Program-made: the position numbers and the translations under genes
Shown: positions 1-41,499 of the stretch, piece after piece
Numbering within the stretch: position 1 is the stretch's first letter
Layout of the letters: each line of letters begins with the position of its first letter
Notes under the pieces: model-generated
The model's database searches: none
What the model was told of the DNA's origin: nothing
What the model saw: only the letters and a program-made list of their open reading frames with translations
Source of the DNA: Phyllobates terribilis
Taxonomy: Eukaryota
Reading direction: 5' to 3'
Length of the DNA: 64,000 bases
NCBI RefSeq assembly: GCF_046119375.1
Contig: NW_027362762.1
Coordinates: 276,396,001-276,460,000 of the forward strand

Positions 1-571
1 AACATACCAGCTATTGGCAGAGAAATATATGTGTCAATATGCTTCATGGAACATTTAATGCTTTATTACAATAAATCATTTTCCCTTAATATCTATGCAA
101 ACACACATGATTCTCCTAACTGTGATGGAATTATGTGATGTTTAAACATTGTCATGACTGTAATTTGTTTGTGAGAATATGAATTCAAGTATTTGGCAAT
201 GAATAAATGAGATATTTATTGCTTACCCTAATAACATGAGTTAAAAATATCTTTGTGTAAATTTGACTAGTAATCCTTGTTAAGCTAAACTGGCACTTGT
301 GGATTTATGGGTATGCCAATATATTACAATAATATTGATTTCTGGCACCCAATGTAACTTATTTGAAAGGAGACAAACATAAATGCACGCAATAAATTTC
401 AGATTTAATGATTGGTTCAACAGTGCATCAGATTATGAGTATTTAAAGGGTTAAACAGGTTTCCAGCCCTTATATAAAATACATACTTATACATGTATAT
501 GCATGTACACATTACAAACACATTTACACATACATCCCCAATCCAACATAGTTGGGATGCTGCATAAAATA

Positions 572-2119
572 CACTGCTCAAAAAATAAAGGGAACACTTA
601 AACAACAGAATATAACTTCAAGTAAATCAAACTTCTGTGAAATCAAACTGTCCACTTATGAAGCAACAGGGATTGACAATCAATTTTACATGCTGTTGTG
701 CAAATGGAATAGACAATAGCTGGAAATTATTGGCATTTATCAAGACACACTTAATAAATGAGTGGTTCTGCAGGTGGGGACCACAGACCAAATCTCAGTA
801 CCATTGCTTTCTGGCTGATGTTTTGGTCACTTTTGAATGTTGGTTGTGCTTTCACACTCATGGTAGCATGAGACGGACTCTACAACCCACTGAAGTTGCT
901 CAGGTAGAGCAGCTCATCCAGGATGGCACATCAATGCAAGCTGTGGCCAGAAGGTTTGCTGTGTTTGTCAGCATAGTGTCCAGAGGCTGGAGGCGCTACC
1001 TGGAAACAGGCCAGTACACCAGGAGATGTGGAGGGGGCTGTAGGAGGGCAACAACCCAGCAGCAGGACTGCTACCTCCGTCTTTATGCAAGCAGGAACAG
1101 GAGAAGCACTGCCAGAGCCCTGCAAAATGACCTACAGCAGGCCACAAATGTGCATGTGTCTGCACAAACGGTTAGAACCTGACTCCATGAGGGCGGAATG
1201 AGGGCCCAATGTCCACAGATGGGGGTTGTGCTCACAGTCCAACACCGTGCAGGATGCCTGGCATTTGCCACAGAACACCAGGATTGGCAAAGTTGTGGCA
1301 CAGATGAAAGCAGGTTTACACTGAGCACATGTGACAGACGTGACAGAGTCTAGAGACGCTGTGAAGAGTGATCTGCTGCCTACAACATCCTTCAGCATGA
1401 CCGGTTTGGCAGTGGGTCAGTAATGGTGTGGGGTGGCATTTCTTTGGAGGGCCACACAGCCCTCCATGTGCTCGCCAGAGGTAGCCTGACTGCCATTAGG
1501 TACCGAGATGAGATCCTCAGACCCCTTGTGAGACCATATGCTGGTGCGGTTGGCCCTGGGTTCCTCCTAATGCAGGACAATGACAAACCTCATGTGGCTG
1601 GAGTGTGTCAGCAGTTCCTGCAAGATGAATGCATTGAAGCTATGGACTGGCCCATCCGTTCCCCAGATCTGAATCCGATTGAGCACATCTGGGACATCAT
1701 GTCTCGCTCCATCCACCAACGTCACATTGCACCACAGACTGTCCAGGAGTTGGCTAGTCCAGGTCTGGGAGGAGATCCCACAGGAGACCATCCGCAACCT
1801 CATCAGGAGCATGCCCGGGCATTGTAGTGAGGTCATATAGACACATGGAGGCCACACACAATACTGAGCCTCATTTGTTTTAAGGACATTACATCAAAGT
1901 TGGATCAGCCTGTAGCGTGTTTTTCCATTTTAATTTTGGGGGTAACTCCAAATCCAGGCCTCCATTGGTTAATAAATTTGATTTCCATTGATGATTTTTG
2001 TGTGATTCCGTTGTAAGCACATTCAATTCTGTACAGAACAAAGTATTCACTGAGAATATTTCATCCATTCAGATCTAGGATGTGTTATTTGAGTGTTCCC
2101 TATATTTTTTTGAGCAGTG
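572..2119 (+). mobile_element. Tc1/mariner DNA transposon, transposase disrupted
   Basis: TA|CACTGCTCAAAAAATAAAGGGAACACT at the left and AGTGTTCCCTATATTTTTTTGAGCAGTG|TA at the right form TIRs with a TA TSD. ORF pieces give the paired-like HTH ([20 protein letters not shown]) and the DD34E region (MVWGGIS...MQDN...[16 protein letters not shown]). Confidence 0.93.
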
Positions 2120-2470
2120 TATAATAAAAACAAAAATAAAATGATTTAGAAATCTCTTATAATGGTATTTTATTCACAACAGAGCATAGAACACATATCA
2201 ATAGTTGATAGTCACTTTTCCATTACATTTAAAAAATTTACTCATTTAGAAATTGATGAAAGCAACACATCTCAAAAAACTTGGGACATGGTTAATAAAA
2301 GGCATGAAAAGTATATGGTACTAATGAAAAATAACTGAAGCAACATTTTTAATCACGTCACAAGACTGTGTATAAGAAGATCATGTTAGTAAAGCAGGGT
2401 TTCTCTGAAGCAAACATAGTCAGAGTTTCACCAAATATGCTTATTTTTTAATTGCTTTCATTTTTAAAAA

Positions 2471-2898
2471 TCCTTAAAGGGTTGATTGTGACTTGTAAGT
2501 TCGCTGCTTCCAATAGGTGGCGCTATAGCGCTCAAGTCCTCTTTTTCTTTGAAGAGGCAATTTGCATATTAAATTTCCCAGAGGAGCACTGCACGGCGAA
2601 TAAGCCTCCTTACTTGGACATGCAAGAGCCGGTATGTCACTCTCCACAAGGAGAAACGTTAGCCCTTAGACCTCAGTCCTGAGCCTCTCATCTAGTCAAA
2701 TCAGTTCTCATACTTTGCATTGATGAGGGCCAACAGCCCGAAACACCATGTCTGCAAATTGAGATTCTGATTTGGCTTTTATCCTAAGTCATATAGCATG
2801 ACTTGTTAAAGGGTTGATTGTGACTTATAGAATTGCTGCTTCCAATAGGTGGCGCTATAGAGTTCAAGTCCTCTTTTCTCTGACAAGGCAATTTGCAA
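2471..2898 (+). mobile_element. Hammerhead-containing short element (retrozyme / Penelope-associated type), about 1.3 units of a 332-bp monomer
   Basis: A ~95-bp direct repeat starts at 2474 and again at 2806 (TTAAAGGGTTGATTGTGACTT...GGCAATTTGCA). A hammerhead lies between the repeats. A possible 11-bp TSD ATTTTTAAAAA sits at 2460-2470 and 2899-2909 (low complexity). Confidence 0.65.
2697..2774 (+). ncRNA. Type I hammerhead ribozyme (U3 core variant)
   Basis: Stem I CAAATCAG-TCTCA-TTTGCA pairs with TGCAAA-TGAGA-CTGATTTG. Core TTGATGA at 2720-2726; stem II GGGC/CAACA/GCCC; GAAA at 2740-2743; stem III ACA/CCA/TGT; GUC triplet at 2750-2752. Confidence 0.8.
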
Positions 2899-2989
2899 AT
2901 TTTTAAAAAACTATTTGAAATGAGAAAAGGGGGACGAATTAAACTTGAAGTAGATGCTGACCACATACAGGGTATTGGTGTACTCATGA

Positions 2990-3350
2990 GAAATTGGGTA
3001 ACAAACAATGTGGTCTATTATCCCTTTTGAAAATTAAGAACTTGGGGCTAAAACAATATTTTAGTGGAATAAATGTCATTTTTAATTTTTATAGCCCAAT
3101 GTTAAATAATCCCATCAATCATCTGTGGTTTTAAAATGCTTATTACACCTCTAGATAAATTCCTTTAGGGTTGCAGTTTCCAAATCGGTTCAAATCTGGC
3201 GGGTTTCTGCTGTTTTGGCATTTCAGAGGCTCTGATAATTTGACATGGCATCAGTAATTTATTCGAGCAAAAATCAAGTTCCAAAAGTCAAATTGCGCTC
3301 CTTCCCTTCCAAGCTCTGAAGAGTGACCAAACAGTAGTTGATGACAATAC
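2990..3350. repeat. Degenerate interspersed repeat that is the target of hAT copy 1; resumes at 14259-15044
   Basis: Motifs (CACCTCTAGATAAATTCC, GGGGCTAAAACAA, ACTCAGGAGAAATTG) are shared with 14259-15044 and 41500-43198. The sequence reads continuously across the hAT TSD. Confidence 0.6.
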
Positions 3351-4263
3351 TAGAGATGAGCGTTGTTCTACTCGAACTGTTCGCCAATCTCAAATTCGAG
3401 CTGTTTTGGGCGGTGTTCGAGCCGGTCGGCGAACACGAACAATTTGAGAAAAATTTGGCTGTTCGAGGTTATGTTCGATAACTGTTCGTGCACCAAAATC
3501 ATAACTGGATTTTTTCTCAGTAATGATGAAAATTAATGTTAATACGCAGTTTGAGTGTACAGCGGGGGGAGGGGCAGGGGATGGATCTCTGCAGGAACAA
3601 TGAAGATCTCCATTTTTTTTTCTCTTTCCCGCATTTGCAGTGGGGAGGTGCAATTTGTCAGCCTATCAGCAGCGCACACACGGAGCGAAGTGCTTTTTTT
3701 CACACAAGCAAGGGCATGTGTGATTGGCAGTGTATGTCACATGTCCTTGCCCTATAAGACCAAGCCATTTTCCCCGTCGCCACCATTTTCTCACTGCTGC
3801 AGCTGCGTGTTAGACGGCACCGCTGTTGCTGTGTGCGCTATACCTTGTTAATTTCAAGCCAATTTTCGCACAAATATACAGATAGCTTGGGAGTAGGGAA
3901 TAGTTGTGATTGCAGTCCTTTTAAGGACTAGGTTACAGCATTTCCTACGACTTTTATCAGGCAGGTCTGTGCTCTTAAATAGATAGATTGTGGGAGTAAA
4001 GACTAATTGTAATTGGAGTCCTTTTCAGGACTAGGTTACATCAGTTCCTATCAGTTTTTGCCAGGCAGGTCTGTGCCAGTGCTGTGCAAGTTTTTTTCAC
4101 AGCATTTGGCTGAATCTAGCAAAGCTAATCCTTTTTGGCCTATTGCAGAGTGTGTTAGTCAGTGGAGTAGCCTATCTGTGTTGCAAGATATACCACCTGT
4201 GTATAGAATACCAATTTTTTTACTGCACCTAGTGAAGTAAAATCTTTTGGGCATAGCATCATT

Positions 4264-5980
4264 CTATTAGTCCATCTATACTGACCTCCATCAGGTTGCA
4301 AACTGAATATAATTTTTTTCTGCATCTAGCTCTGAAAAAATATTTGGGCTTCTAGCGGTGTGTGGGACTTGGTCTATTAGTCCGTCTATACTGACCTCCA
4401 TCAGGTTGCAAATTAAAAATAATTTTTTTCTTCATTTATCTCTGAAAAAATATTTGGGCTTCTAGCAGCGTGTGGGACTTGTTCTATTAGTCCATCTATA
4501 CTGACCTCCATCAGGTTGCAAATTAAAAATAATTTTTTTCTTCATTTATCTCTGAAAAAATATTTGGGCTTCTAGCAGCGTGTGGGACTTGTTCTATTAG
4601 TCCATCTATACTGACCTCCATCAGGTTGCAAATTAAAAATAATTTTTTTCTGCATCTAGCTCTGAAAAAATATTTGGGCTTCTAGCAGTGTGTGGGACTT
4701 GGTCTATTAGTCCATCTATACTGACCTCCATCAGGTTGCAAATTAAAAATATTTTTTTTCTGCATCTAGCTCTGAAAAAATATTTTGGCTTCCAGCAGTG
4801 TGTGGGACTTGGTCTTTTAGTCCATCTATACTGACCTCCATCAGGTTGCAAATTGAATAAAAAAAAATTCTGCATCTAGCTCTGAAAAAATATTTGGGCT
4901 TCTAGTAGTGTGTGGGACTTGGTCTATTAGTCCATCTATACTGACCTCCATCAGGTTGCAAATTAAAAATAATTTTTTTCTTCATTTATCTCTGAAAAAA
5001 TATTTGGGCTTCTAGCAGCGTGTGGGACTTGTTCTATTAGTCCATCTATACTGACCTCCATCAGGTTGCAAATTAAAAATAATTTTTTTCTGCATCTAGC
5101 TCTGAAAAAATATTTGGGCTTCTAGCAGTGTGTGGGACTTGGTCTATTAGTCCATCTATACTGACCTCCATCAGGTTGCAAATTAAAAATAATTTTTTTC
5201 TGCATCTAGCTCTGAAAAAATATTTGGGCTTCTAGCAGTGTGTGGGACTTGGTCTATTAGTCCATCTATACTGACCTCCATCAGGTTGCAAATTAAAAAT
5301 AATTTTTTTCTTCATTTATCTCTGAAAAAATATTTGGGCTTCTAGCAGCGTGTGGGACTTGTTCTATTAGTCCATCTATACTGACCTCCATCAGGTTGCA
5401 AATTAAAAATAATTTTTTTCTGCATCTAGCTCTGAAAAAATATTTGGGCTTCTAGCAGTGTGTGGGACTTGGTCTATTAGTCCATCTATACTGACCTCCA
5501 TCAGGTTGCAAATTAAAAATAATTTTTTTCTGCATCTAGCTCTGAAAAAATATTTGGGCTTCTAGCGGTGTGTGGGACTTGGTCTATTAGTCCATCTATA
5601 CTGACCTCCATCAGGTTGCAAATTAAAAATAATTTTTTTCTGCATCTAGCTCTGAAAAAATATTTGGGCTTCTAGCAGTGTGTGGGACTTGGTCTATTAG
5701 TCCATCTATACTGACCTCCATCAGGCTGCAAATTAAAAATAATTTTTTTCTGCATCTAGCTCTGAAAAAATATTTGGGCTTCTAGCAGTGTGTGGGACTT
5801 GGTCTATTAGTCCATCTATACTGACCTCCATCAGGTTGCAAATTAAAAATAATTTTTTTCTTCATTTATCTCTGAAAAAATATTTGGGCTTCTAGCAGCG
5901 TGTGGGACTTGTTCTATTAGTCCATCTATACTGACCTCCATCAGGTTGCAAATTAAAAATAATTTTTTTCTGCATCTAGC
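4264..5980 (+). repeat. 110-bp tandem array (~15.6 units) inside hAT copy 1
   Basis: Unit TAGTCCATCTATACTGACCTCCATCAGGTTGCAAATTAAAAATAATTTTTTTCTGCATCTAGCTCTGAAAAAATATTTGGGCTTCTAGCAGTGTGTGGGACTTGGTCTAT repeats with period 110. Confidence 0.97.
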
Positions 5981-6094
5981 CCAGCCAATAGTTTTGGCCT
6001 AATACCACAGTTTGGCCACTCAGCTCTGCTCGGTTACCATCCATTGTTTTTTTGTGCAAACAACTCCAGAGTTGTGAATTAGTTAACCACCAAA

Positions 6095-9000
6095 ATGAGT
6101 GGAAAAAGGCCTGCTGCTGGTGGAAAGGGGAATAGGCGTGTTGGGAAGGGGAAAAAAGGTTGTGTCCGTGGGGTAGGTGCAGAAGAAAGACCATCTTCCA
6201 GCCAAACTAAAATGTCTACTTCTTTTAGCGGACAATGTGATAAGATCCCTTTCTTACGGCCACGCCAATCGCTACAAATTCCAGATGAGGCACAAAAACA
6301 GCAGGTGCTTCAACGGATATCAAGTGCTCCTTTACGTGGGCTCTCCTCCACATCAACTTCAACATCACAAATACTCCAGTCCTCAAAGGTGTCACCCAAA
6401 TCGCACTTGCTTCCTCACAGCTCCCAAATCTCCAGCTGCCCGTCTGAGTATGAGGTAGAACAGATGGTTGAGTCTGCAGAGCTGTTTACTCATACTATAG
6501 CCTGGGAATCAGAGGTCGACTCCAGCGCTTCTGTGAATCCAGACGAGGAAATCATCTGCACTGATGCCCAGAATCTTTATGAGTCGGATCCAGGACCAGA
6601 CGCAGAAGGTTCTGACCATAATGTAGACCCTCATTCCCAAACTGTAACTCCTGTTGGTGGAGACAATGAGGAAGACGATGATAAGACTCAAATACCTGAT
6701 TGGAGTGACAACTTTAGTTTTTTGTCAGGGCAGGAACAGGTTGGCTCTGAGGACGACGGGTGTGATAACGCACAGGGTGATGATGATGAGGTCGGAGATC
6801 CCACTTACTGTCAACCCACAGTCAGCCAAGAGATGAGGTCAGCAGAGGAGGTGGAGGAAGATGCTAGTGACGACGAGGTCAGGTTGCGCCTTCCTGGACA
6901 GAGACGTAGTACTGGAAGCACGTCAACAACTGCATCCTCAAACACAACTCTGCCTCTCACCACAAGTCGTGGTGGCTCTTCAGGTCGCATGGGTGCTAAG
7001 CCTTGCATAGCCTGGGCATTTTTTCAGATCGATAAAGATGACCCAACTCGTGTTATCTGTAACATTTGTCAGCAAAAGCTAAGTAGAGGCCAAAAAATAC
7101 ATAGTTTGAGTACTTCATGCATGAACCGGCACATGGACATGAAGCATAAGTTGCAGTGGGAAGCTCAGTGTGCTACAATGCGGCCTAGACGGCCGGGCCA
7201 ATCACCGTCTGCCATATCTTGTGCATCCGTGGCCTCTTCATCCTCTGTGACTGGGGGGACAGCAGTCACACCTGTTTTGGGGCGCAGACCTGCCATCTCT
7301 TTACCCGCAACAGCCAGCGTGATTGGCAGGTCATCATTTTCTTTGGAGGTGGTAACACCAGCTGGTGTTGAGCGCTGTCCGACATCGATAGCACCACCTT
7401 TGGATCAAGGCAACCTAACATGTCCGCCTGCATCTTCCTCACAGACCGGCAGTTTGCCGGGGACACCCTTATCAACCCCGTCTAAGCACAATAGCCAGCC
7501 CTCGGTCCCTCAGATGTGGACAAGTAAAAGACCATTTCCTCCTAGCCATGAGAAAGCTAAGAGGTTGAATTTCACCATCTGCAAGCTCTTGGCTACAGAA
7601 ATGCTGCCTTTCCGCCTGGTGGACACAGAGGATTTTCGAGACCTTATATCCGTCGCAGTGCCCCAGTACCAGATGCCCAGTCGGCACTACTTCTCAAAGA
7701 AAGGTGTGCCTGCGCTCCACCAGCATGTCGCACACAACATCACCGCTTCTTTGAGAAACTCTGTGTGTGACAGGGTGCATTTCACCACAGACACTTGGAC
7801 GAGTAGGCATGGACAGGGGCGTTACATGTCGCTGACTGGGCACTGGGTAACTATGGTGACAGCAGGACAAGGGGATGCTGTCCAAGTCTTGCCGTCCCCA
7901 CGAGTTGTGTGTCAATCCTCTTTATGTCAAAGTTCCTCCACTGCTTCTGCCTCCTCAACCTCCTCTCGGTCTTCCACCTGCACCCAAAGCCTGTCTGGTC
8001 ATGCCACAAGCTTTCTAACTGCGCAGAAGGGATCCTGCACACCTCCTTACTATGCTGGCAGTAGGGCTCAACGTCATCAGGCGGTTTTTACATTGAAATG
8101 TCTGGGAAATGTGAGTCACACAGCTGAGGAGTTGTGGTCAGCTCTGGAGAACCAATTTCATGAATGGTTGTCTTCACTGGACCTGAAACCAGGGAAGGCC
8201 GTGTGCGACAATGCTGCAAACCTGGGTGCGGCCCTTCGCCGGGGCAATGTCACACACGTGCCTTGTATGGCTCACGTGTTGAACCTGGTTGTCCAGCAAT
8301 TTTTAGCCCACTATCCCAGACTAGATGGCCTTCTGCAGAGGGCACGGTCGCTGTGTGCTCACTTCCGCCGTTCGCATCCCGCAGCTCAGCGACTTACATC
8401 TCTACAGAAGTCGTTGGGCCTGCCACTTCACCGGCTAAAATGCTATGTGCCTACCCGGTGGAATTCAACTCTGCACATGTTGCAGCGACTGTGGCAGCAC
8501 CGACAAGCCCTGGTGCAATACATTCTGACGTATAGCCTGGGCCAACGAGATTCAGAGGTGGGGCAAATCACGCTGGAGGAGTGGTCTCAGATCAGGAACC
8601 TATGCACCCTTCTGCACAGTTTTGAAATGGCGACGAAGATGTTTAGTGCTGACGATGCCATTATCAGCATGACTATTCCGGTGATTTACATGCTGGAGCA
8701 CATGTTAAACAGAATTCGGAGTCAGGTGGTGGCACAAGAGGAGGTGGAGGAAGTAGAGGAGGAGGAGTTGTATGCGGAAGGGCTAACATCTGCAAGGTCC
8801 AGACGGTCGGCAGCACCAAGGCGGCAGGCATGTGAGGGTGGGGGAGATGGTTTTACCAGGGCGCATGGTAGCAGCCAAACTAGTGAGGAAGGTGCAGGAG
8901 CCCAGGAAGAAGTGGAGGACGAACTGATGGAAGACTCATCAGATGAGGGAGACCTTGATCACATTTCTGTTGTGCGAGGTTGGGGGGAGAGGACAGAGGA

Positions 9001-9775
9001 AGGAAGCATGATTGTTACCTCGCCACCAACACAACAGGGACTTGGTGCTCCTGGATGCGCAACACACATGAGTGCCTTCTTGCTGCACTACCTGCAACAT
9101 GACCCTCGAATTGTGAGAATTAGAAATAATCCTGACTACTGGGTTGCCACACTGTTAGATCCCCGGTACAAAAGTAAATTTGCAGAAATTATTCCTGCCA
9201 TAGAAAGGGATGCACGCATGCAGGAGTATCAGCAGAGACTGTTGCAGAATCTTACATGTGCTTTTCCACAAAATACCAGTGGTGCACGTAGTGAATCTCA
9301 CAGTTCCAACTTGCCAACCGTGGGACCGTCAAGTGTTCAGCACTCAAACCGTAACAGAACCACAGTATCTGCTGGTAACATCAATTTTGCGGAATCATTT
9401 CACCACTTTTTTAGCCCATCCTTTGCAAGGCCACAGGAGACAAGAAGTCTGACACATAGTCAACGCCTAGAGACGATGGTACAGGAGTATCTCCAAGTAA
9501 ACATTGAAGCCACGACTGTGTCACTGGACCCTTGCTCTTTTTGGGCTTCCAATCTGGATAAATGGCCGGAGCTAGCCACTTACGCCTTGGAGATCTTGTC
9601 ATGCCCCGCAGCCAGCGTTCTGTCTGAACGTGTGTTCAGCGCTGCTGGTGGTGTGCTGACAGATAAGCGCACGCGGCTCTCCACTGATAATGTAGACAGA
9701 CTCACGTTCATAAAGATGAACAAATCATGGATCCGAAACGACTTTTCTACCCCTGTGTCATCCTGGGGAGAGTAA
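6095..9775 (+). CDS. hAT transposase, 1226 aa (BED finger, DDE core, C-terminal dimerization domain; ZBED-like)
   Basis: BED finger AWAFF..CNIC..RHMDMKH; FTTDTWTS (D566), VCDNAAN (D705), CMAH (CxxH), PTRWNST, SERVFS (E1178), then the TDKRTRLS dimerization motif. No stops. Confidence 0.95.
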   Translation: MSGKRPAAGGKGNRRVGKGKKGCVRGVGAEERPSSSQTKMSTSFSGQCDKIPFLRPRQSLQIPDEAQKQQVLQRISSAPLRGLSSTSTSTSQILQSSKVSPKSHLLPHSSQISSCPSEYEVEQMVESAELFTHTIAWESEVDSSASVNPDEEIICTDAQNLYESDPGPDAEGSDHNVDPHSQTVTPVGGDNEEDDDKTQIPDWSDNFSFLSGQEQVGSEDDGCDNAQGDDDEVGDPTYCQPTVSQEMRSAEEVEEDASDDEVRLRLPGQRRSTGSTSTTASSNTTLPLTTSRGGSSGRMGAKPCIAWAFFQIDKDDPTRVICNICQQKLSRGQKIHSLSTSCMNRHMDMKHKLQWEAQCATMRPRRPGQSPSAISCASVASSSSVTGGTAVTPVLGRRPAISLPATASVIGRSSFSLEVVTPAGVERCPTSIAPPLDQGNLTCPPASSSQTGSLPGTPLSTPSKHNSQPSVPQMWTSKRPFPPSHEKAKRLNFTICKLLATEMLPFRLVDTEDFRDLISVAVPQYQMPSRHYFSKKGVPALHQHVAHNITASLRNSVCDRVHFTTDTWTSRHGQGRYMSLTGHWVTMVTAGQGDAVQVLPSPRVVCQSSLCQSSSTASASSTSSRSSTCTQSLSGHATSFLTAQKGSCTPPYYAGSRAQRHQAVFTLKCLGNVSHTAEELWSALENQFHEWLSSLDLKPGKAVCDNAANLGAALRRGNVTHVPCMAHVLNLVVQQFLAHYPRLDGLLQRARSLCAHFRRSHPAAQRLTSLQKSLGLPLHRLKCYVPTRWNSTLHMLQRLWQHRQALVQYILTYSLGQRDSEVGQITLEEWSQIRNLCTLLHSFEMATKMFSADDAIISMTIPVIYMLEHMLNRIRSQVVAQEEVEEVEEEELYAEGLTSARSRRSAAPRRQACEGGGDGFTRAHGSSQTSEEGAGAQEEVEDELMEDSSDEGDLDHISVVRGWGERTEEGSMIVTSPPTQQGLGAPGCATHMSAFLLHYLQHDPRIVRIRNNPDYWVATLLDPRYKSKFAEIIPAIERDARMQEYQQRLLQNLTCAFPQNTSGARSESHSSNLPTVGPSSVQHSNRNRTTVSAGNINFAESFHHFFSPSFARPQETRSLTHSQRLETMVQEYLQVNIEATTVSLDPCSFWASNLDKWPELATYALEILSCPAASVLSERVFSAAGGVLTDKRTRLSTDNVDRLTFIKMNKSWIRNDFSTPVSSWGE

Positions 9776-22076: not shown

Positions 22077-22868
22077 CACTATGTGCAGAATTATTAGGCA
22101 AGTTGTATTTTAGAGGATTATTTTTATTATTGATCAACAACTATGTTCTCAATCAACCCAAAAGACTCATAAATATCCAAGCTTAATATTTTTGGAAGTT
22201 GGAGTGGTTTTTTTTTTAGATTTGGCAATCTTAGGAGGATATCTGTTTGTGCAGGTAACTATTACTGTGCCGAATTATTAGGCAACTTAATAAAAACCAA
22301 ATATAATCCCATCTCACTTGTTTATTTTCACCAGGTAAACCAATATCAGTGCACAAAATTTAGAAATAAACATTTCTGACATGCAAAAACAAAACCCCCA
22401 AAAATTAGTGATCAATATAGCCACCTTTCTTTATGATGATACTCAACAGCCTTCCATCCATAGATTCTGTCAGTTGTTTGATCTGTTTTCGATCATCATT
22501 GCGTGCAGCAGCCACCACAGCCTCCCAGACACTGCTCTGAGAGGTGTACTGTTTTCCCTCCCTTTAGATCTCACATTTTATGATGGACCACAGGTTCTCT
22601 ATAGGGGTTCAGATCAGGTGAACAAGGGGGCCATGTCATTATTTTTTCTTCTTTTAGACCTTTTTTGGCCAGCCATGCTGTGGAGTAGTTGCATGTGATG
22701 GAGCATTGTCCTGCATGAAAATCATGTTTTTCTTGAACGATACCGACTTCTGCCTGTACCACTGCTTGAAGAAGTTGTCTTCCAGAAACTGGCAGTAGGT
22801 CTGAGAGTTGAGCTTCACTCCATCCTCAACCCGAAAAGATCCCACAAGTTCATCTTTGATGATACCAG
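22077..22868 (-). mobile_element. Tc1 3' fragment, cut by the left end of hAT copy 2
   Basis: TA|CACTATGTGCAGAATTATTAGGCAAG TIR; FMQDNAPSH and WPPCSPDLNP on minus. The 5' half is not found at the other end of copy 2. Confidence 0.87.
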
Positions 22869-23786
22869 TAGAGATGAGCGTTGTTCTACTCGAACTGTTC
22901 GCCAATCTCAAATTCGAGCTGTTTTGGGCGGTGTTCGAGCCGGTCGGCGAACACGAACAATTTGAGAAAAATTCGGCTGTTCGAGGTTATGTTCGATAAC
23001 TGTTCGTGCACCAAAATCATAACTGGATTTTTTCTCAGTAATGATGAAAATTAATGTTAATACGCAGTTTGAGTGTACAGCGGGGCGGGGGGAGGGGCAG
23101 GGGATGGATCTCTGCAGGAACAATGAAGATCTCCATTTTTTTTTCTCTTTCCCGCATTTGCAGTGGGGAGGTGCAATCTGTCAGCCTATCAGCAGCGCAC
23201 ACACGGAGCGAAGTGCTTTTTTTCACACAAGCAAGGGCATGAGTGATTGGCAGTGTATGTCACATGTCCTTGCCCTATAAGACCAAGCCATTTTCCCCGT
23301 CGCCACCATTTTCTCACTGCTGCAGCTGCGTGTTAGATGGCACCGCTGTTGCTGTGTGCGATATACCTTGTTAATTTCAAGCCAATTTTCGCACAAATAT
23401 ACAGATAGCTTGGGAGTAGGGAATAGTTGTGATTGCAGTCCTTTTAAGGACTAGGTTACAGCATTTCCTACGACTTTTATCAGGCAGGTCTGTGCTCTTA
23501 AATAGATAGATTGTGGGAGTAAAGACTAATTGTAATTGGAGTCCTTTTCAGGACAAGGTTACATCAGTTCCTATCAGTTTTTGCCAGGCAGGTCTGTGCC
23601 AGTGCTGTGCAAGTTTTTTTCACAGCATTTGGCTGAATCTAGCAAAGCTAATCCTTTTTGGCCTATTGCAGAGTGTGTTAGTCAGTGGAGTAGCCTATCT
23701 GTGTTGCAAGATATACCACCTGTGTATAGAATACCAATTTTTTTACTGCACCTAGTGAAGTAAAATCTTTTGGGCATAGCATCATT

Positions 23787-25283
23787 CTATTAGTCCATCT
23801 ATACTGACCTCCATCAGGTTGCAAACTGAATATAATTTTTTTCTGCATCTAGCTCTGAAAAAATATTTGGGCTTCTAGCGGTGTGTGGGACTTGGTCTAT
23901 TAGTCCATCTATACTGACCTCCATCAGGTTGCAAATTAAAAATAATTTTTTTCTGCATCTAGCTCTGAAAAAATATTTGGGCTTCTAGCAGTGTGTGGGA
24001 CTTGGTCTAATAGTCCATCTATACTGACCTCCATCAGGTTGCAAATTAAAAATAATTTTTTTCTTCATTTATCTCTGAAAAAATATTTGGGCTTCTAGCA
24101 GCGTGTGGGACTTGTTCTATTAGTCCATCTATACTGACCTCCATCAGGTTGCAAATTAAAAATAATTTTTTTCTGCATCTAGCTCTGAAAAAATATTTGG
24201 GCTTCTAGCAGTGTGTGGGACTTGGTCTATTAGTCCATCTATACTGACCTCCATCAGGTTGCAAATTAAAAATAATTTTTTTCTGCATCTAGCTCTGAAA
24301 AAATATTTGGGCTTCTAGCAGTGTGTGGGACTTGGTCTATTAGTCCATCTATACTGACCTCCATCAGGTTGCAAATTGAATAAAAAAAATTTCTGCATCT
24401 AGCTCTGAAAAAATATTTGGGCTTCTAGCGGTGTGTGGGACTTGGTCTATTAGTCCATCTATACTGACCTCCATCAGGTTGCAAATTAAAAATAATTTTT
24501 TTCTGCATCTAGCTCTGAAAAAATATTTGGGCTTCTAGCAGTGTGTGGGACTTGGTCTATTAGTCCATCTATACTGACCTCCATCAGGTTGCAAATTAAA
24601 AATAATTTTTTTCTTCATTTAGCTCTGAAAAAATATTTGGGTTTCTAGCAGTGTGTGGGACTTGTTCTATTAGTCCTTCTATACTGACGTCCAACAGGTT
24701 GCAAATTGAATATAATTTTTTTCTGCATCTAGCTCTGAAAAAATATTTGGGCTTGTAGCGGTGTGTGGGACTTGGTCTATTAGTCCATCTATACTGACCT
24801 CCATCAGGTTGCAAATTAAAAATAATTTTTTTCTGCATCTAGCTCTGAAAAAATATTTGGGCTTCTAGCAGTGTGTGGGACTTGGTCTATTAGTCCATCT
24901 ATACTGACCTCCATCAGGTTGCAAATTAAAAATAATTTTTTTCTGCATCTAGCTCTGAAAAAATATTTGGGCTTCTAGCAGTGTGTGGGACTTGGTCTAT
25001 TAGTCCATCTATACTGACCTCCATCAGGTTGCAAATTAAAAATAATTTTTTTCTGCATCTAGCTCTGAAAAAATATTTGGGCTTCTAGCAGTGTGTGGGA
25101 CTTGGTCTATTAGTCCATCTATACTGACCTCCATCAGGTTGCAAATTGAATAAAAAAATTTTCTGCATCTAGCTCTGAAAAAATATTTGGGCTTCTAGCG
25201 GTGTGTGGGACTTGGTCTATTAGTCCATCTATACTGACCTCCATCAGGTTGCAAATTAAAAATAATTTTTTTCTGCATCTAAC
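23787..25283 (+). repeat. 110-bp tandem array (~13.6 units) inside hAT copy 2
   Basis: Same unit as 4264-5980, about two units shorter. Confidence 0.96.
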
Positions 25284-25397
25284 CCAGCCAATAGTTTTGG
25301 CCTAATACCACAGTTTGGCCACTCAGCTCTGCTCGGTTACCATCCATTGTTTTTTTGTGCAAACAACTCCAGAGTTGTGAATTAGTTAACCACCAAA

Positions 25398-28300
25398 ATG
25401 AGTGGAAAAAGGCCTGCTGCTGGTGGAAAGGGGAATAGGCGTGTTGGGAAGGGGAAAAAAGGTTGTGTCCGTGGGGTAGGTGCAGAAGAAAGACCATCTT
25501 CCAGCCAAACTAAAATGTCTACTTCTTTTAGCGGACAATGTGATAAGATCCCTTTCTTACGGCCACGCCAATCGCTACAAATTCCAGATGAGGCACAAAA
25601 ACAGCAGGTGCTTCAACGGATATCAAGTGCTCCTTTAAGTGGGCTCTCCTCCACATCAACTTCAACATCACAAATACTCCAGTCCTCAAAGGTGTCACCC
25701 AAATCGCACTTGCTTCCTCACAGCTCCCAAATCTCCAGCTGCCCGTCTGAGTATGAGGTAGAACAGATGGTTGAGTCTGCAGAGCTGTTTACTCATACTA
25801 TAGCCTGGGAATCAGAGGTCGACTCCAGCGCTTCTGTGAATCCAGACGAGGAAATGATCTGCACTGATGCCCAGAATCTTTATGAGTCAGATCCAGGACC
25901 AGACGCAGAAGGTTCTGACCATAATGTAGACCCTCATTCCCAAACTGTAACTCCTGTTGGTGGAGACAATGAGGAAGACGATGATAAGACTCAAATACCT
26001 GATTGGAGCGACAACTTTAGTTTTTTGTCAGGGCAGGAACAGGTTGGCTCTGAGGACGACGGGTGTGATAACGCACAGGGTGATGATGATGAGGTCGGAG
26101 ATCCCACTTACTGTCAACCCACAGTCAGCCAAGAGATGAGGTCAGCAGAGGAGGTGGAGGAAGATGCTAGTGACGACGAGGTCAGGTTGCGCCTTCCTGG
26201 ACAGAGACGTAGTACTGGAAGCACGTCAACAACTGCATCCTCAAACACAACTCTGCCTCTCACCACAAGTCGTGGTGGCTCTTCAGGTCGCATGGGTGCT
26301 AAGCCTTGCATAGCCTGGGCATTTTTTCAGATCGATAAAGATGACCCAACTCGTGTTATCTGTAACATTTGTCAGCAAAAGCTAAGTAGAGGCCAAAAAA
26401 TACATAGTTTGAGTACTTCATGCATGAACCGGCACATGGACATGAAGCATAAGTTGCAGTGGGAAGCTCAGTGTGCTACAATGCGGTCTAGCCGGCCGGG
26501 CCAACCACCGTCTGCCATATCTTGTGCATCCGCGGCCTCTTCATCCTCTGTGACTGGGGGGACAGCAGTCACACCTGTTTTGGGGCGCAGACCTGCCACC
26601 TCTTTACCCGCAACAGCCAGCGTGATTGGCAGGTCATCATTTTCTTTGGAGGTGGTAACACCAGCTGGTGTTGAGCGCTGTCCGACATCGATAGCACCAC
26701 CTTTGGATCAAGGCAACCTAACATGTCCGCCTGCATCTTCCTCACAGACCGGCAGTTTGCCGGGGACACCCTTATCAACCCCGTCTAAGCACAATAGCCA
26801 GCCCTCGGTCCCTCAGATGTGGACAAGTAAAAGACCATTTCCTCCTAGCCATGAGAAAGCTAAGAGGTTGAATTTCACCATCTGCAAGCTCTTGGCTACA
26901 GAAATGCTGCCTTTCCGCCTGGTGGACACAGAGGATTTTCGAGACCTTATGTCCGTCGCAGTGCCCCAGTACCAGATGCCCAGTCGGCACTACTTCTCAA
27001 AGAAGGGTGTGCCTGCGCTCCACCAGCATGTCGCACACAACATCACCGCTTCTTTGAGAAACTCTGTGTGTGACAGGGTGCATTTCACCACAGACACTTG
27101 GACGAGTAGGCATGGACAGGGGCGTTACATGTCGCTGACTGGGCACTGGGTAACTATGGTGACAGCAGGACAAGGGGCTGCTGTCCAAGTCTTGCAGTCC
27201 CCACGAGTTGTGCGTCAATCCTCTTTATGTCATTTTTCCTCCACTGCTTCTGCCTCCTCAACCTCCTCTCGGTCTTCCACCTGCACCCAAAGCCTGTCTG
27301 GTCATGCCACAAGCTTTCTAACTGCGCAGAAGGGATCCTGCACACCTCCTTACTATGCTGGCAGTAGGGCTCAACGTCATCAGGCGGTTTTTACATTGAA
27401 ATGTCTGGGAAATGTGAGTCACACAGCTGAGGAGTTGTGGTCAGCTCTGGAGAACCAATTTCATGAATGGTTGTCTCCACTGGACCTGAAACCAGGGAAG
27501 GCCGTGTGCGACAATGCTGCAAACCTGGGTGCGGCCCTTCGCCGGGGCAATGTCACACACGTGCCTTGTATGGCTCACGTGTTGAACCTGGTTGTCCAGC
27601 AATTTTTAGCCCACTATCCCAGACTAGATGGCCTTCTGCAGAGGGCACGGTCGCTGTGTGCTCACTTCCGCCGTTCGCATCCCGCAGCTCAGCGACTTAC
27701 ATCTCTACAGAAGTCGTTGGGCCTGCCACTTCACCGGCTAAAATGCGATGTGCCTACCCGGTGGAATTCAACTCTGCACATGTTGCAGCGACTGTGGCAG
27801 CACCGACAAGCCCTGGTGCAATACGTTCTGACGTATAGCCTGGGCCAACGAGATTCAGAGGTGGGGCAAATCACGCTGGAGGAGTGGTCTCAGATCAGGG
27901 ACCTATGCACCCTTCTGCACAGTTTTGAAATGGCGACGAAGATGTTTAGTGCTGACGATGCCATTATCAGCATGACTATTCCGGTGATTTACATGCTGGA
28001 GCACATGTTAAACAGAATTCGGAATCAGGTGGTGGCACAAGAGGAGGTGGAGGAAGTAGAGGAGGAGGAGTTGTATGCGGAAGGGCTAACATCTGCAAGG
28101 TCCAGAAGGTCGGCAGCACCAAGGCTGCAGGCATGTGAGGGTGGGGGAGATGGTTTTACCAGGGCGCATGGTAGCAGCCAAACTAGTGAGGAAGGTGCAG
28201 GAGCCGAGGAAGAAGTCTAGGACGAACTGATGGAAGACTCATCAGATGAGGGAGACCTTGATCACATTTCTGTTGTGCGAGGTTGGGGGGAGAGGACAGA

Positions 28301-29078
28301 GGAAGGAAGCATGATTGTTACCTCGCCACCAACACAACAGGGACTTGGTGCTCCTGGATGCGCAACACACATGAGTGCCTTCTTGCTGCACTACCTGCAA
28401 CATGACCCTCGAATTGTGAGAATTAGAAATAATCCTGACTACTGGGTTGCCACACTGTTAGATCCCCGGTACAAAAGTAAATTTGCAGAAATTATTCCTG
28501 CCATAGAAAGGGATGCACGCATGCAGGAGTATCAGCAGAGACTGTTGCAGAATCTTACATGTGCTTTTCCACAAAATACCAGTGGTGCACGTAGTGAATC
28601 TCACAGTTCCAACTTGCCAACCGTGGGACCGTCAAGTGTTCAGCACTCAAACCGTAACAGAACCACAGTATCTGCTGGTAACATCAATTTTGCGGAATCA
28701 TTTCACCACTTTTTTAGCCCATCCTTTGCAAGGCCACAGGAGACAAGAAGTCTGACACATAGTCAACGCCTAGAGACGATGGTACAGGAGTATCTCCAAG
28801 TAAACATTGAAGCCACGACTGTGTCACTGGACCCTTGCTCTTTTTGGGCTTCCAATCTGGATAAATGGCCGGAGCTAGCCACTTACGCCTTGGAGATCTT
28901 GTCATGCCCCGCAGCCAGCGTTCTGTCTGAACGTGTGTTCAGCGCTGCTGGTGGTGTGCTGACAGATAAGCGCACGCGGCTCTCCACTGATAATGTAGAC
29001 AGACTCACGTTCATAAAGATGAACAAATCATGGATCCGAAACGACTTTTCTACCCCTGTGTCATCCTGGGGAGAGTAA
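25398..29078 (+). pseudogene. hAT transposase with a single nonsense codon (TAG at 28218-28220)
   Basis: The 940-aa and 282-aa ORFs are in the same frame. GTG GAG in copy 1 reads GTC TAG here, upstream of the catalytic E and the dimerization domain. Confidence 0.93.
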
Positions 29079-37447: not shown

Positions 37448-40400
37448 TGGGAAAAATTATTTTCAGGGCTAGATGCAGCTAAAAATTATTATTAATTTCA
37501 AAGCTGGTGGAGCTTGGTATAGATGGCGTAATACAATGAGTCCCACACACTGCTAGAAGCCCAAATATTTTTTCAGAGCTAGATGCAGATAACAATTATT
37601 TTTAATTTGCAACCTGATGGAGGTCAGTATAGATGAACTAATAGACCCAGTCCCACACACTGCTAGAAGCCCAAATATTTTTTCAGAGCTAGATGCAGAA
37701 AAAAATTATATTCAATTTGCAGCCTGATGGAGGTCAGTATAGATGGACTAATAGAACAAGTCCCACTCACTGCTAGAAGCCCAAATATTTTTTCAGAGGT
37801 AGATGCAGAAAAAAATGATATTCAATTTGCAACCTGATGGAGGTCAGTATAGATGGACTAATAGACCCAGTCCCACACACTGCTAGAAGCCCAAATACTT
37901 TTTCAGAGCTAGATGCAGATAAAAATTATTTTTAATTTGCAACCTGATGAAGATCAGTATAGATGGACTAATAGACCAAGTCCGACACACTGCTAGAAGC
38001 CCAAATATTTTTTCAGAGCTAGATGCAGATAAAAATTATTTTTAATTGCAACCTGATGGAGGTCAGTGTAGATGGACTAATAGACCAAGTCCCACACACT
38101 GCTAGAAGCCCAAATATTTTTTCAGAAGTAGATGCAGAAAAAAATTATATTCAATTTGCAACCTGATGGAGGTCAGTATAGATGGACTAATAGAACAAGT
38201 CCCACACACTGCTAGAAGCCCAAATTTTTTTTCTGAGGTAGATGCAGAAAAAAATGATATTCAGTTTGCAACCTGATGGAGGTCAGTATAGATGGACTAA
38301 TAGAACAAGTCCCACACACAGCTAGAAGCCCAAATATTTTTTCAGAGCTAGATGCAGATAAAAATAATTTTTAATTTGCAACCTGATGGAGATCAGTATA
38401 GATGGACTAATAGACCAAGTCCCACACACTGCTAGAAGCCCAAACATTTTTTCAGAAGTAGATGCAGAAAAAAATGATATTCAATTTGCAACCTGATGGA
38501 GGTCAGTATAGATGGACTAATAGAACAAGTCCCACACACTGCTAGAAGCCCAAATCTTTTTTCAGAGCTAGATGCAGAATAAAATTATATTGAATTTGCA
38601 ACCTGGTGTAGGTTAGTATAGATGGACTAATAGAACAAGTCCCACACACTGCTAGAAGCCCAAATATTTTTTCAGAGCTAGATGCAGAAAAAAATGATAT
38701 TCAATTTGCAACCTGATGGAGGTCAGTATAGATGGACTAATAGACCAAGTCCCACACACTGCTAGAAGCCCAAATACTTTTTCAGAGCTAGATGCAGATA
38801 AAAATTATTTTTAATTTGCAACCTGATGGAGATCAGTATAGATGGACTAATAGACCAAGTCCCACACACTGCTAGAAGCCCAAATATTTTTTCAGAGCTA
38901 GATGCAGACAAAAAAATTATTTTTCATTTGCAGCCTGATGAAGGTCAGTATAGATGGACTAATAGAGAAATTCCCACACACTGCTAGAAGGCCAAATATT
39001 TTTTCAGAGCTAGATGCAGACAAAAAAATTATTTTTAATTTGCAACCTGATGGAGGTCAGTATAGATGGACTAATAGAGAAAGTCCCACACACTGCTAGA
39101 AGGCCAAATATTTTTTCAGAGCTAGATGCAGACAAAAAAATATTTTTAATTTTCAACCTGATGGAGGTCAGTATAGATGGACTAATAGAACAAGTACCAC
39201 ACACTGCTAGAAGGCCAAATATTTTTTCAGAGCTAGATGCAGACAAAAAATAATTTTGAATTTGCAACCTGATGGAGGTCAGTATAGATGGACTAGTAGA
39301 ACAAGTCCGACACACCGCTAGAAGCCCAAATATTTTTTCAGAGGTAGATGCAGAAAAAAATTATATTCAGTTTGCAACCTGATGGAGGTCAGTATAGATG
39401 GACTAATAGAACAAGTCCCACACACTGCTAGAAGGCCAAATATTTTTTCAGAGATAGATGCAGACAAAAAATTATTTTTAATTTGCAACCTGATGGAGGT
39501 AAGTATAGATGGACTAATAGAACAAGTCCCACACACTGCTAGAAGGCCAAATATTTTTTCAGAGCTAGATGCAGATAAAATTATTTTTAATTTGCAACCT
39601 GATGGAGGTCAGTATAGATGGACCAATAATTCAAGTCCAACACACTGCTAGATAACCAAATATTTTTTCAGAGCTAGATGCAGAAAAAAATTATATTCAG
39701 TTTGCAACCTGATGGAGGTCAGTATAGATGGACTAATAGAACAAGTCCCACACACTGCTAGAAGGCCAAATATTTTTTCAGAGCTAGATGCAGACAAAAA
39801 AATATTTTGAATTTGCAACCTGATGGAGCTCAGTATAGATGGACTAGTAGAACAAGTCCCACACACTGCTAGAAGGACAAATATTTTTTCAGAGCTAGAA
39901 GCAGAAAAAAAAAATATTCAATTTGCAACCTGATGAAGGTCAGTATAGATGGACTAATAGAACAAGTCCCACACACTGTTAGAAGGCCAAATATTTTTTC
40001 AGAGCTAGATGCAGACAAAAAAATATTTTTAATTTGCAACCTGATGGAGGTCAGTATAGATGGACTAATAGAACAAGTCCCACACACTGCTAGAAGGACA
40101 AATATTTTTTCAGAGCTAGATGCAGACAAAAAAATATTTTTAATTTGCAACCTGATGGAGGTCAGTATAGATGGACTAATAGACCAAGTCCCACACACTG
40201 CTAGAAGGCCAAATATTTTTTCAGAGCTAGATGCAGACAAAAAAATATTTTTAATTTGCAACCTTATGGAGGTCAGTATAGATGGATTAATAGAACAAGT
40301 CCCACACACTGCTAGAAGCCCAAATATTTTTTCAGAGCTAGATGCAGACAAAAAATTATTTTGAATTTGCAACCTGATGGAGGTCAGTATAGATGGACTA

Positions 40401-41432
40401 GTAGAACAAGTCCCACACACTGCTAGAAGGACAAATATTTTTTCAGAGCTAGATGCAGAAACAAATTATATTCAATTTGCAACCTTATGGAGGTCAGTAT
40501 AGATGGACTAATAGAATGATGCTATGCCCAAAAGGTTTAACTTCACTAGGTGCAGTAAAAAAATTGGTATTCTATACACAGGTGGTGTATCTTGCAACAC
40601 AGATAGGCTACTCCACTGACTAACACACTCTGCAATAGGCCAAAAAGGATTAGCTTTGCTAGATTCTGCCAAATGCTGTGAAAAAAACTTGCACAGCACT
40701 TTCACAGACCTGCCTGGCAAAAACTGATAGGAACTGATGTAACTTAGTCCTGAAAAGGACTGCAATTACAATTAGTCTTTACTCCCACAACCTATCTATT
40801 TAAGAGCACAGACCAGCCTGATAAAAGTCGTAGGAAATGCTGTAACCTAGTCCTTAAAAGGACTGCAATCACAACTATTCCCTACTCCCAAGCTATCTGT
40901 AGATTTGTGCGAAAATTGGCTTGAAATTAACAAGGTGTAGAGCACACAGCAACAGCGGTGCCGTCTAACACGCAGCTGCAGCAGTGAGAAAATGGTGGCG
41001 ACGGGGTAAATGGCTGGGTCTTATAGGGCAAGGACATGTGACATACACTGCCAATGACACATGCCCTTGCTTGTGTGAAAAAAAGCACTTCGCTCCGTGT
41101 GTGCGCTGCTGATAGGCTGACAGATTGCACCTCCCCACTGTTAATGCGGGAAAGAGAAAAAATAATGGAGATCTTCATTATTCCTGCAGAGATCCATCCC
41201 CTGCCCCTCCCCCCGCCCCGCTGTACACTCAAACTGCGTATTAACATTAATTTTCATAATTACTGAGAAAAAATCCAGTTATGATTTTGGTGCACGAACA
41301 GTTATCGAACATAACCTCGAACAGCCGAATTTTTCTCAAATCGTACGTGTTCGCCGAACGGCTCGAACACCGCCCAAAACAGCTCGAATTTGAGGTTGGC
41401 GAACAGTTCGAGTCGGACAACGCTCATCTCTA
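37448..41432 (-). mobile_element. hAT family A left arm without transposase
   Basis: Reverse complement of TAGAGATGAGCG at 41421-41432, followed by the whole left arm and the 110-bp array. It then runs into a degenerate unit like 9860-9975 and joins the Ngaro RNase H. Confidence 0.92.
37540..40514 (-). repeat. 110-bp tandem array (~27 units, more heterogeneous)
   Basis: Reverse complement of the same unit. Variant blocks differ between about 37540-38890 and 38900-40514 (GAAGGCC / GCAGAC variants). Confidence 0.95.
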
Positions 41433-41499
41433 GTACGGGCTCTATGATATACGGGCGATTAAATGCCATATTTGCATTTTCACTCTGCAACATCCGTTG

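What the first reader, a model, noticed from the sequence alone, without database searches (positions are those of the whole stretch)
2471..2898. Retrozyme-like 332-nt unit with an intact-looking type I hammerhead ribozyme
Seen: a hammerhead at 2697-2774 with a long bulged stem I (about 19 bp in three segments), 4-bp stem II, GAAA, 3-bp stem III and a GUC site. It sits inside a non-coding unit whose first ~95 bp recur 332 bp later. Established: Penelope-like elements and non-LTR retrozymes of animals, including amphibians, use type I hammerheads to cut 170-400-nt monomers that can circularise. Inference: a 1.3-unit insert is what reverse transcription around a circular RNA would leave, so this may be a frog retrozyme family. 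The core has U in place of the canonical C3.
Basis: partly seen in the sequence, partly recalled or inferred. Interest (0 to 1): 0.8.

Follow-up and report, generated by a model that had tools for sequence, protein, structure and literature searches.

The report
Self-promoting hammerhead retrozyme riding Penelope machinery
This is one slightly decayed copy of a 332-base repeat with a hammerhead ribozyme fold, present in thousands of copies; its insertion scars match Penelope-like retrotransposons, which likely spread it, and it carries a predicted snRNA-type promoter of its own, so it is a new, unusually readable member of the known animal 'retrozymes'.

Summary
Observation confirmed: a type I hammerhead (2694-2777, cut after C2752) lies in a 1.3-unit insert (2471-2898) between 11-nt target-site duplications. 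The family has thousands of copies (808 exact intact cores; a sister family with 2315 pattern hits shows compensatory stem changes). U3 is private decay (C in 135 of 139 units), as is a break in the stem-III palindrome, so this copy is probably crippled. It is a non-LTR retrozyme of the newt satellite 2 type, a known kind already reported in frogs. Two additions. (1) Penelope signature: 9-16-nt duplications, 5' truncations, head-to-head inversions and two 3' ends about 104 nt apart, one on each arm in 13 of 13 classifiable two-armed inserts; the genome's Neptune-type elements have similar 80-100-nt tails. (2) Octamer, SPH-like and PSE-like boxes match this genome's U5/U2 promoters, although a review says retrozymes lack promoters. 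The monomer-circle inference is not shown: reverse transcription ignores the cut site, but units within one insert differ six times more than one circle allows. Transcription, cleavage and circles are untested. Earlier scan notes describe similar Penelope-type scars for ribozyme-free repeats in other genomes.

The parts
2460..2470 (.). left target-site duplication (11 nt, AT-rich)
   Evidence: identical to 2899-2909; 44 of 109 inserts have such duplications against 2 of 200 mismatched flank pairs
2471..2898 (+). whole retrozyme insert, 1.3 units, 5'-truncated, ending at the main 3' end (S1)
   Evidence: 22 of 331 positions of the full unit differ from the column majority, family median 4.2%
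2474..2805 (+). one full 332-nt unit (unit position = window position minus 2473)
2806..2898 (+). partial second unit, up to priming site S1; its octamer is mutated
   Evidence: 87.6% to 2474-2570
2560..2567 (+). perfect octamer (ATTTGCAT); S1, the main 3' end of inserts, lies at its 3' edge
   Evidence: same box and orientation in 6 of 11 distinct U5 upstream sequences printed; intact in 115 of 133 units
2575..2592 (+). SPH-like box next to the octamer (predicted distal sequence element)
   Evidence: resembles the box after the octamer in this genome's U5 genes; octamer+box pattern 5636 exact hits with a 5-nt spacer indel between families, control 0; the name SPH is recalled, its position beside the octamer is described in PMC2235858
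2568..2673 (+). 'tail' of about 104 nt between the two 3' ends S1 (unit 94-97) and S2 (unit 198-202)
2641..2654 (+). PSE-like box
   Evidence: 11 of 14 identical to the U2 box at -62, first 9 exact; 3 of 60 shuffles as good; the same core at about -58 to -63 in U1, U2, U5; core intact in 114 of 130 units
2699..2703 (+). predicted transcription start (PSE + 58 to 62), about 50 nt before the cut site; untested
   Evidence: inference from spacing; no pile-up of 5' ends there (0 against 2.2 expected)
2694..2777 (+). type I hammerhead with internally looped 22-bp stem I, 4-bp stem II, weak near-palindromic stem III
2720..2720 (+). C3>U, private decay of this copy
   Evidence: C in 135 of 139 units; C in 80-99.9% of contig depth in four other organisms' runs
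2748..2748 (+). G>A (CpG decay) that breaks the stem-III palindrome
   Evidence: predicted two-molecule helix -3.2 kcal/mol against -7.4 for a family copy
2752..2752 (+). C17, predicted cleavage 3' of it
   Evidence: core geometry; cleavage untested
2899..2909 (.). right target-site duplication

Best explanation
The finding is one decayed copy of a high-copy, non-coding 332-nt hammerhead repeat (a non-LTR retrozyme of the newt satellite 2 type) that was likely inserted by the enzyme of a Neptune-type Penelope-like element and is predicted to be transcribed from its own snRNA-type promoter. Proposed cycle: (1, inferred) in a tandem, octamer+SPH and PSE in one unit start Pol II transcription about 50 nt before the cut site and read on through the following units; (2, inferred) the hammerhead has a weak, palindromic stem III and would cut efficiently only as a dimer, so multimers persist beside monomers and circles; (3, pattern shown, enzyme inferred) the Penelope protein nicks AT-rich DNA with a stagger of about 12 nt and primes inside the RNA at S1, or on both target strands at S1 and S2, giving 5'-truncated tandems and head-to-head inserts with the tail on one end; (4, shown) copying passes the cut site and often exceeds one unit, which puts the promoter back upstream of a ribozyme; the template is longer than one unit and often of mixed units (uncleaved multimer, multimeric circle or switching between sister RNAs). 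This copy keeps the promoter boxes but has lost C3 and the palindrome, is a lone hammerhead, and probably cleaves poorly.
For: Copy number: 6609 candidates; 808 exact 33-nt cores, 3690 exact S1 motifs, sister family 2315, all controls 0. Structure under selection: both paired differences between the families are compensatory (stem I U-A>C-G, stem II C-G>G-C), none in the core; 96% of cells paired, 19 double changes, 0 of 500 shuffles. Dimer type: stem III pairing probability <=0.05 as monomer, 8-bp two-molecule helix in both families, as described for amphibian motifs in PMC7229834. Penelope signature: duplications in 44 of 109 inserts, 9-16 nt, mode 12, null 2 of 200; 70% AT beside the 3' end against 58%; 16 of 18 one-armed hammerhead-anchored inserts end at S1; 27 of 110 inserts are two-armed, and the 13 with both ends classifiable all pair S1 with S2, none S1/S1 or S2/S2; 5 more of 12 in the sister family; 'tail at only one end' and inverted 5' copies are PLE hallmarks (PMC8557442, PMC3846280) and match two internal priming sites in vitro (PMC11167929). 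Neptune-type elements here (CX2-5CXXC linker in 9 of 12 loci) have two 3' ends about 80 and 100 nt apart. Non-autonomous: 35 of 86 arms exceed one unit and repeat it; no PLE protein match abuts an insert. Promoter; the three boxes together in 9 of 20000 shuffles; newt satellite 2 has an snRNA promoter (as cited in PMC2220036).
Against: No transcription, cleavage or circle was shown. Rfam misses the ribozyme. No Penelope element with a homologous terminal repeat was found among 89 GIY-YIG loci (4370 candidates exist), so the partner is unnamed. 14 of 27 two-armed inserts and 65 of 109 duplications could not be classed or were not found. The covariation rests on two clades, so on few independent events. 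The promoter motifs were chosen after looking; the PSE match alone is marginal (3 of 60); octamer-PSE spacing (81) is shorter than in the snRNA genes seen (about 92-180); the conserved blocks coincide with S1 and S2 and could be kept for protein binding instead; no 5' ends pile up at the predicted start. In Xenopus only 1 of 9 tested retrozyme dimers cleaved in vitro (bioRxiv 2026).
Confidence: 0.75

Rival explanations
1. Strict rolling-circle model (first reader; PMC7229834): monomers are cut out, ligated, and one 332-nt circle is copied round and round to give each insert.
For: No stop at the cut site (2 against 2.1 expected; 3 against 3.5) nor at the predicted start; 60 of 86 arms cross the cut; units within an insert are more alike (20% discordant) than between inserts (41%); the circle folds well (-100.5 against -81.0 +/- 4.4); circles are shown in axolotl.
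Against: Adjacent units differ at polymorphic sites in 47 of 304 comparisons, 7.6 expected, in 23 of 58 informative inserts; a six-unit insert (L031) is a mosaic; a Penelope protein used mainly unprocessed RNA in vitro (PMC11167929). Multimeric circles or template switching would rescue a looser version.
Confidence: 0.2
2. The inserts are only terminal repeats (pLTRs) of a 5'-truncated autonomous Penelope-like element, not an element of their own.
For: All insertion marks are those of PLEs; 24 of 57 Xenopus retrozyme families resemble Repbase entries, nearly all PLE ends (bioRxiv 2026).
Against: 35 of 86 arms run past one unit into the same unit, never into an ORF; no homology to the 3' regions of 89 GIY-YIG loci except separate insertions; the hammerhead is full-size, whereas PLE motifs are minimal (PMC7761336).
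Confidence: 0.07
3. A satellite spread by DNA-level events (unequal crossing-over, extrachromosomal DNA circles), the ribozyme being a relic.
For: Tandem arrays up to six units occur; mixed units could come from recombination or gene conversion; the 2026 preprint discusses satellite growth by crossover.
Against: Fixed 3' ends, random 5' ends, duplications and S1/S2 inversions need primed reverse transcription; compensatory changes show the RNA fold was kept.
Confidence: 0.04
4. The element has no promoter; the octamer, SPH-like and PSE-like boxes are chance or are the binding sites of the Penelope protein, and RNA comes from read-through.
For: Review statement that retrozymes seem to lack promoters (PMC7761336); S1 abuts the octamer and S2 lies 30 nt after the PSE-like box; motif test is post hoc.
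Against: Order, strand and sequence match this genome's U5 and U2 promoters; 9 of 20000 shuffles; both boxes kept across a spacer indel; precedent in newt.
Confidence: 0.25

Closest known systems
Animal non-LTR retrozymes (Cervera and de la Pena 2020, PMC7229834; Li, Clavereau and Pollet 2026, bioRxiv 10.64898/2026.07.22.740005)
   Same: Non-coding 170-400-nt unit (amphibian mean 316; axolotl 330 and 350), type I hammerhead in each unit, tandem and solo copies, duplications longer than 4 bp, co-occurrence with PLEs.
   Different: Those papers propose the PLE link from co-occurrence and trees; the preprint's main text has no 'tail', 'promoter', 'octamer' or 'newt'. Here the insertion ends themselves carry the PLE signature, units within inserts are mixed, and promoter boxes are present. 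Expression and circles, shown for axolotl, are untested here. Supplements of both papers could not be read.
Satellite 2 of newts and salamanders (Epstein and Gall 1987; Coats et al. 1994; originals not held, known from PMC7229834, PMC6155905, PMC2220036)
   Same: About 330-bp unit, internally looped extension of stem I, weak palindromic stem III acting as dimer, snRNA-type Pol II promoter.
   Different: Stem III here can form 3 bp against 1-2 bp in axolotl; dispersed as short PLE-type inserts (median about one unit); sequence homology to salamander repeats not tested (no sequence on hand).
Penelope-like elements, Neptune and Poseidon clades (PMC11167929, PMC8557442, PMC3846280)
   Same: 5' truncation, partial tandems, inverted 5' copy, 8-10-bp or longer duplications, AT-rich targets, internal priming at two sites, tail on one end.
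   Different: No ORF; full-size hammerhead; tail about 104 nt against the 30-40 nt described (but 80-100 nt in this genome's Neptune-type families); no shared sequence with any PLE end examined.

Membership tests
Type I hammerhead ribozyme | Core CUGANGA / GAAA / UH with three helices, helix I open | tested here: met
   family; this copy departs at C3
Type I hammerhead ribozyme | Covarying helices | tested here: met
   two clades only
Type I hammerhead ribozyme | Match to an Rfam hammerhead model | tested here: not met
   no hammerhead family at E<=10; not a defining test, curated models miss many animal motifs (recalled)
Type I hammerhead ribozyme | Site-specific self-cleavage | not testable with these tools
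   needs in vitro transcription
Non-LTR retrozyme | Non-coding tandem unit of 150-450 bp with a type I hammerhead in each unit | tested here: met
   332-nt arrays of up to 6 units, four exact cores 332 apart at one locus
Non-LTR retrozyme | Dispersed copies with duplications longer than 4 bp, no LTR/PBS/PPT, no ORF | tested here: met
Non-LTR retrozyme | At least two consecutive complete hammerheads at the locus ('active' in the 2026 preprint) | tested here: not met
   this locus has one; other loci of the family meet it
Non-LTR retrozyme | Expressed as linear and circular monomer RNA | not testable with these tools
   only contigs of runs not on record as RNA were available
Satellite 2 of caudate amphibians | Extended stem I and weak palindromic stem III | tested here: met
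Satellite 2 of caudate amphibians | snRNA-type promoter (octamer and PSE) | tested here: inconclusive
   boxes present and matching own snRNA genes; function untested
Satellite 2 of caudate amphibians | Sequence homology to salamander satellite 2 | not testable with these tools
   original papers and supplement not readable
Autonomous Penelope-like element | RT plus GIY-YIG ORF | tested here: not met
   none joined to any insert examined
Penelope-mobilised element | 5' truncation, inverted 5' copy, duplications, tail on one end | tested here: met
Penelope-mobilised element | Sequence shared with the pLTR of a partner PLE | tested here: inconclusive
   none in 89 loci of 4370 candidates

The most novel reading that the evidence does not exclude
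Amphibian retrozymes are self-contained snRNA-promoter transcription units, kept since frogs and salamanders split, and their inserts record how Penelope proteins work: one dimeric enzyme primes both target strands on one multimeric RNA, one subunit at S1 and the other at S2, which explains the long-known inverted pLTR with a tail on one end only. The two arms of an insert share alleles (21% discordant, as within an arm, against 41% between inserts), as one RNA or one source array would give.
Probability: 0.35. Interest if true: 0.75.

Novelty: new member of a known kind. Interest (0 to 1): 0.5.

Why it matters
How animal retrozymes move and how they are transcribed are open questions: the Penelope partnership has been argued from co-occurrence and trees, the circle as template is a model, and a review says they lack promoters. 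This family gives thousands of readable insertion junctions that carry the Penelope signature, argue against a single monomer circle as the only template, and point to defined promoter boxes and two priming sites that can be mutated. It also offers a 332-nt natural substrate for asking how Penelope enzymes make inverted ends and tails. The locus itself is an ordinary, decayed copy in transposon-rich DNA.

Tried and rejected
Rfam: no hammerhead. DNA search with the 69-nt 3' end found no candidates (the tool skips very common words), replaced by a pattern. An apparent excess of inserts starting at unit position 1 vanished when ends were aligned properly: query bias. Pile-up of 5' ends at the cut site or predicted start: none; best 16-nt window not significant, 88 of 200 null draws as extreme. 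First guess that the PSE overlaps stem III: not better than shuffles; the better candidate is at 2641. Partner search: no homologous pLTR in 30 and 89 GIY-YIG loci; L159 looked like a retrozyme-PLE chimera but is a nested insertion inside the RT gene with its own duplication; L244 holds a 74% copy downstream that other loci of its family lack (not examined further). Sequencing runs: no RNA holder listed; contigs cannot show starts, strand, level or circles, so nothing is concluded on expression. Effect of C3U: one search gave no direct measurement; PMC11167929 says C3G and G8C abolish cleavage; that a U3-G8 wobble lowers activity is recalled. Papers not held: Coats 1994, Schaub 1997, Cremisi 1992, Pabon-Pena 1991. 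No paper held 'retrozyme'+'promoter'+'proximal sequence element'; four held 'retrozyme'+'Penelope'+'tail'+'target site duplication' (listing only for three of them). The organism was not identified.

Full report
Observation. Stem I has 22 bp in three segments, 2694-2777, z = -4.24. A descriptor scan finds no other hammerhead in the window and none in 30 simulated windows; Rfam does not recognise it at E<=10. The first 97 nt recur 332 nt later at 87.6%, and an 11-nt duplication (2460-2470, 2899-2909) bounds the insert exactly at 2471-2898. The neighbourhood is transposon debris: a Tc1-type element at 569-2122 and a hAT element from about 3340.

Family. The 10.6-Gb genome gives 6609 candidates for the unit (40 scored), 808 exact copies of a 33-nt intact core and 3690 of a 22-nt motif at the 3' end, all controls 0. 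A sister family has 2315 pattern hits; its column majorities equal those of the first family at 292 of 332 positions, and within the ribozyme the changes at paired positions are compensatory (unit 228/297 in stem I, 257/263 in stem II), with none in the core. On 20 aligned copies 96% of cells pair and 19 show double changes, 0 of 500 shuffles; this reflects two clades, so few events. Contigs from runs of four coded organisms in four studies cover the unit and not its flanks, so the family is not confined to this genome; these runs are only guessed to be RNA and say nothing on expression.

This copy is decayed. Position 3 is C in 135 of 139 units and U in 2, and C in 80-99.9% of contig depth elsewhere. 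Stem III hardly forms in a monomer (probability <=0.05), but its palindrome gives an 8-bp helix between two hammerheads in both families (-7.4 and -7.0 kcal/mol); the G>A at 2748 cuts this to -3.2. Amphibian hammerheads work as dimers (PMC7229834, results and discussion read). The window copy is single, and 6.6% from the column majority against a median of 4.2%.

Insertion anatomy. I examined 110 inserts after dropping 21 loci that were the same place or segmental duplicates. Duplications scored in 44 of 109 against 2 of 200 mismatched flank pairs; 9-16 nt, mode 12; DNA beside the 3' end is 70% AT against 58%. 3' ends fall at two sites, S1 (unit 94-97) and S2 (198-202). Of 18 one-armed inserts picked by the ribozyme, 16 end at S1. 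Of 110 inserts 27 have an inverted 5' arm; in the 13 with both outer ends classifiable, one is S1 and the other S2 every time (chance 1.2e-4 at even odds); 14 have an end that could not be classed; none is S1/S1 or S2/S2. The sister family adds 5 of 12, read. [quoted passage not shown] The genome holds many GIY-YIG elements, with the Neptune/Nematis linker in 9 of 12 loci; two families have bimodal 3' ends about 80 and 100 nt apart (15 of 17 and 11 of 11 ends), close to the 104 nt here. No ORF is joined to any insert examined, 35 of 86 arms run past one unit into the next, and no homologous terminal repeat turned up in 89 PLE loci. So the element is non-autonomous, the Penelope enzyme is inferred, and the partner family is unnamed.

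Template. 60 of 86 arms cross the cut site and stops there are at background (2 against 2.1; 3 against 3.5 in 130 arms): cleaved linear monomers are not the template. That fits a circle or an uncleaved multimer. Units within an arm differ at eight polymorphic non-CpG sites in 20.5% of comparisons, the two arms of an insert in 21%, different inserts in 41%, background 6.9%. For adjacent units at seven sites, 47 of 304 are discordant against 7.6 expected if identical at insertion and about 121 if random; 23 of 58 inserts are affected (five loci mixed with diverged relatives left out). One monomer circle cannot be the general template; multimers from one source array, multimeric circles or switching between sister RNAs can. 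Later gene conversion is not excluded. The window's own 97-nt overlap is concordant and does not decide the matter.

Promoter. The unit has a perfect octamer (2560-2567), an SPH-like box 7 nt later and a PSE-like box at 2641. This genome's own snRNA genes, fetched as a yardstick, show the same octamer, in the same orientation, followed by a similar box in U5, and a TCTCC-type box at about -58 to -63 in U1, U2 and U5; the U2 box matches the unit at 11 of 14 positions (3 of 60 shuffles). The three boxes occur together in 9 of 20000 dinucleotide shuffles (post hoc), and octamer and box are kept across a 5-nt spacer indel in 5636 exact hits. The spacing predicts a start at 2699-2703, about 50 nt before the cut. 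Newt satellite 2 has an snRNA promoter (cited in PMC2220036, passage; original not held), whereas a 2020 review states that retrozymes seem to lack promoters (PMC7761336, passages). An upstream-type promoter is lost from its own transcript unless the copy is longer than one unit, which would explain why copying past one unit matters (inference). Against: function untested, spacing short, blocks coincide with S1 and S2, no 5' ends at the predicted start (0 against 2.2).

Comparison. It works like, and by the testable features is, a non-LTR retrozyme of the satellite 2 type. Retrozymes in all seven amphibians sampled, including Xenopus, and their proposed PLE origin are in a 2026 preprint (parts 1-3 of 5, the main text, read), whose text has no mention of tail, promoter or octamer; its supplements and that of PMC7229834 could not be read and may hold sequences or junction data that bear on novelty. 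PMC6155905, PMC2235858 and PMC7151607 were seen as passages. A search of earlier scan notes found no look-alike sequence and two notes on ribozyme-free tandem repeats with Penelope-type insertions in other genomes, seen after my analysis.

Verdict. Real feature, known kind, decayed copy; the value lies in what the family shows about mobilisation and transcription. Interest 0.5.

Noticed in passing
window 2505-2526 and 2837-2858: A stretch in each unit resembles the CTCF-binding consensus (recalled, no matrix on hand); if real, the family has spread thousands of such sites.
   Followed up: no
window 569-2122: Tc1-type DNA transposon with terminal inverted repeats and a broken transposase (PF01498, PF13358), apparently nested in an older Tc1-like fragment; another at about 43900-44700.
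   Followed up: partly
window 3338-9775, 22856-29078, 37452-41435: Three related hAT copies, each with an internal 110-bp tandem array (15.6, 13.6, 27.8 copies); the first keeps an open 1230-codon frame with zf-BED and hAT dimerisation domains.
   Followed up: partly
L147-L159, L133-L157 (3' regions of GIY-YIG loci): Neptune-type families carry divergent hammerhead-like motifs and long tails (about 80 and 100 nt) whose second end falls at a splice-donor-like sequence in two families.
   Followed up: partly
L159:oriented 346-779: A two-armed retrozyme insert (ends S1 and S2, 12-nt duplication) sits inside a PLE reverse-transcriptase gene.
   Followed up: yes
L043/L175, L032, L098: Inserts of the two retrozyme families lie adjacent or nested at the same loci; chance or shared target preference not tested.
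   Followed up: no
G000:C1:693227, 755690, 808005, 857234: Four sister-family promoter modules on one strand at 50-60-kb spacing, suggesting a large tandem segmental repeat.
   Followed up: no
L191-L220: U1 genes form a 1079-bp tandem array on C1; U2 genes lie in about 1.3-kb repeats on many contigs with a variant octamer at about -170.
   Followed up: no
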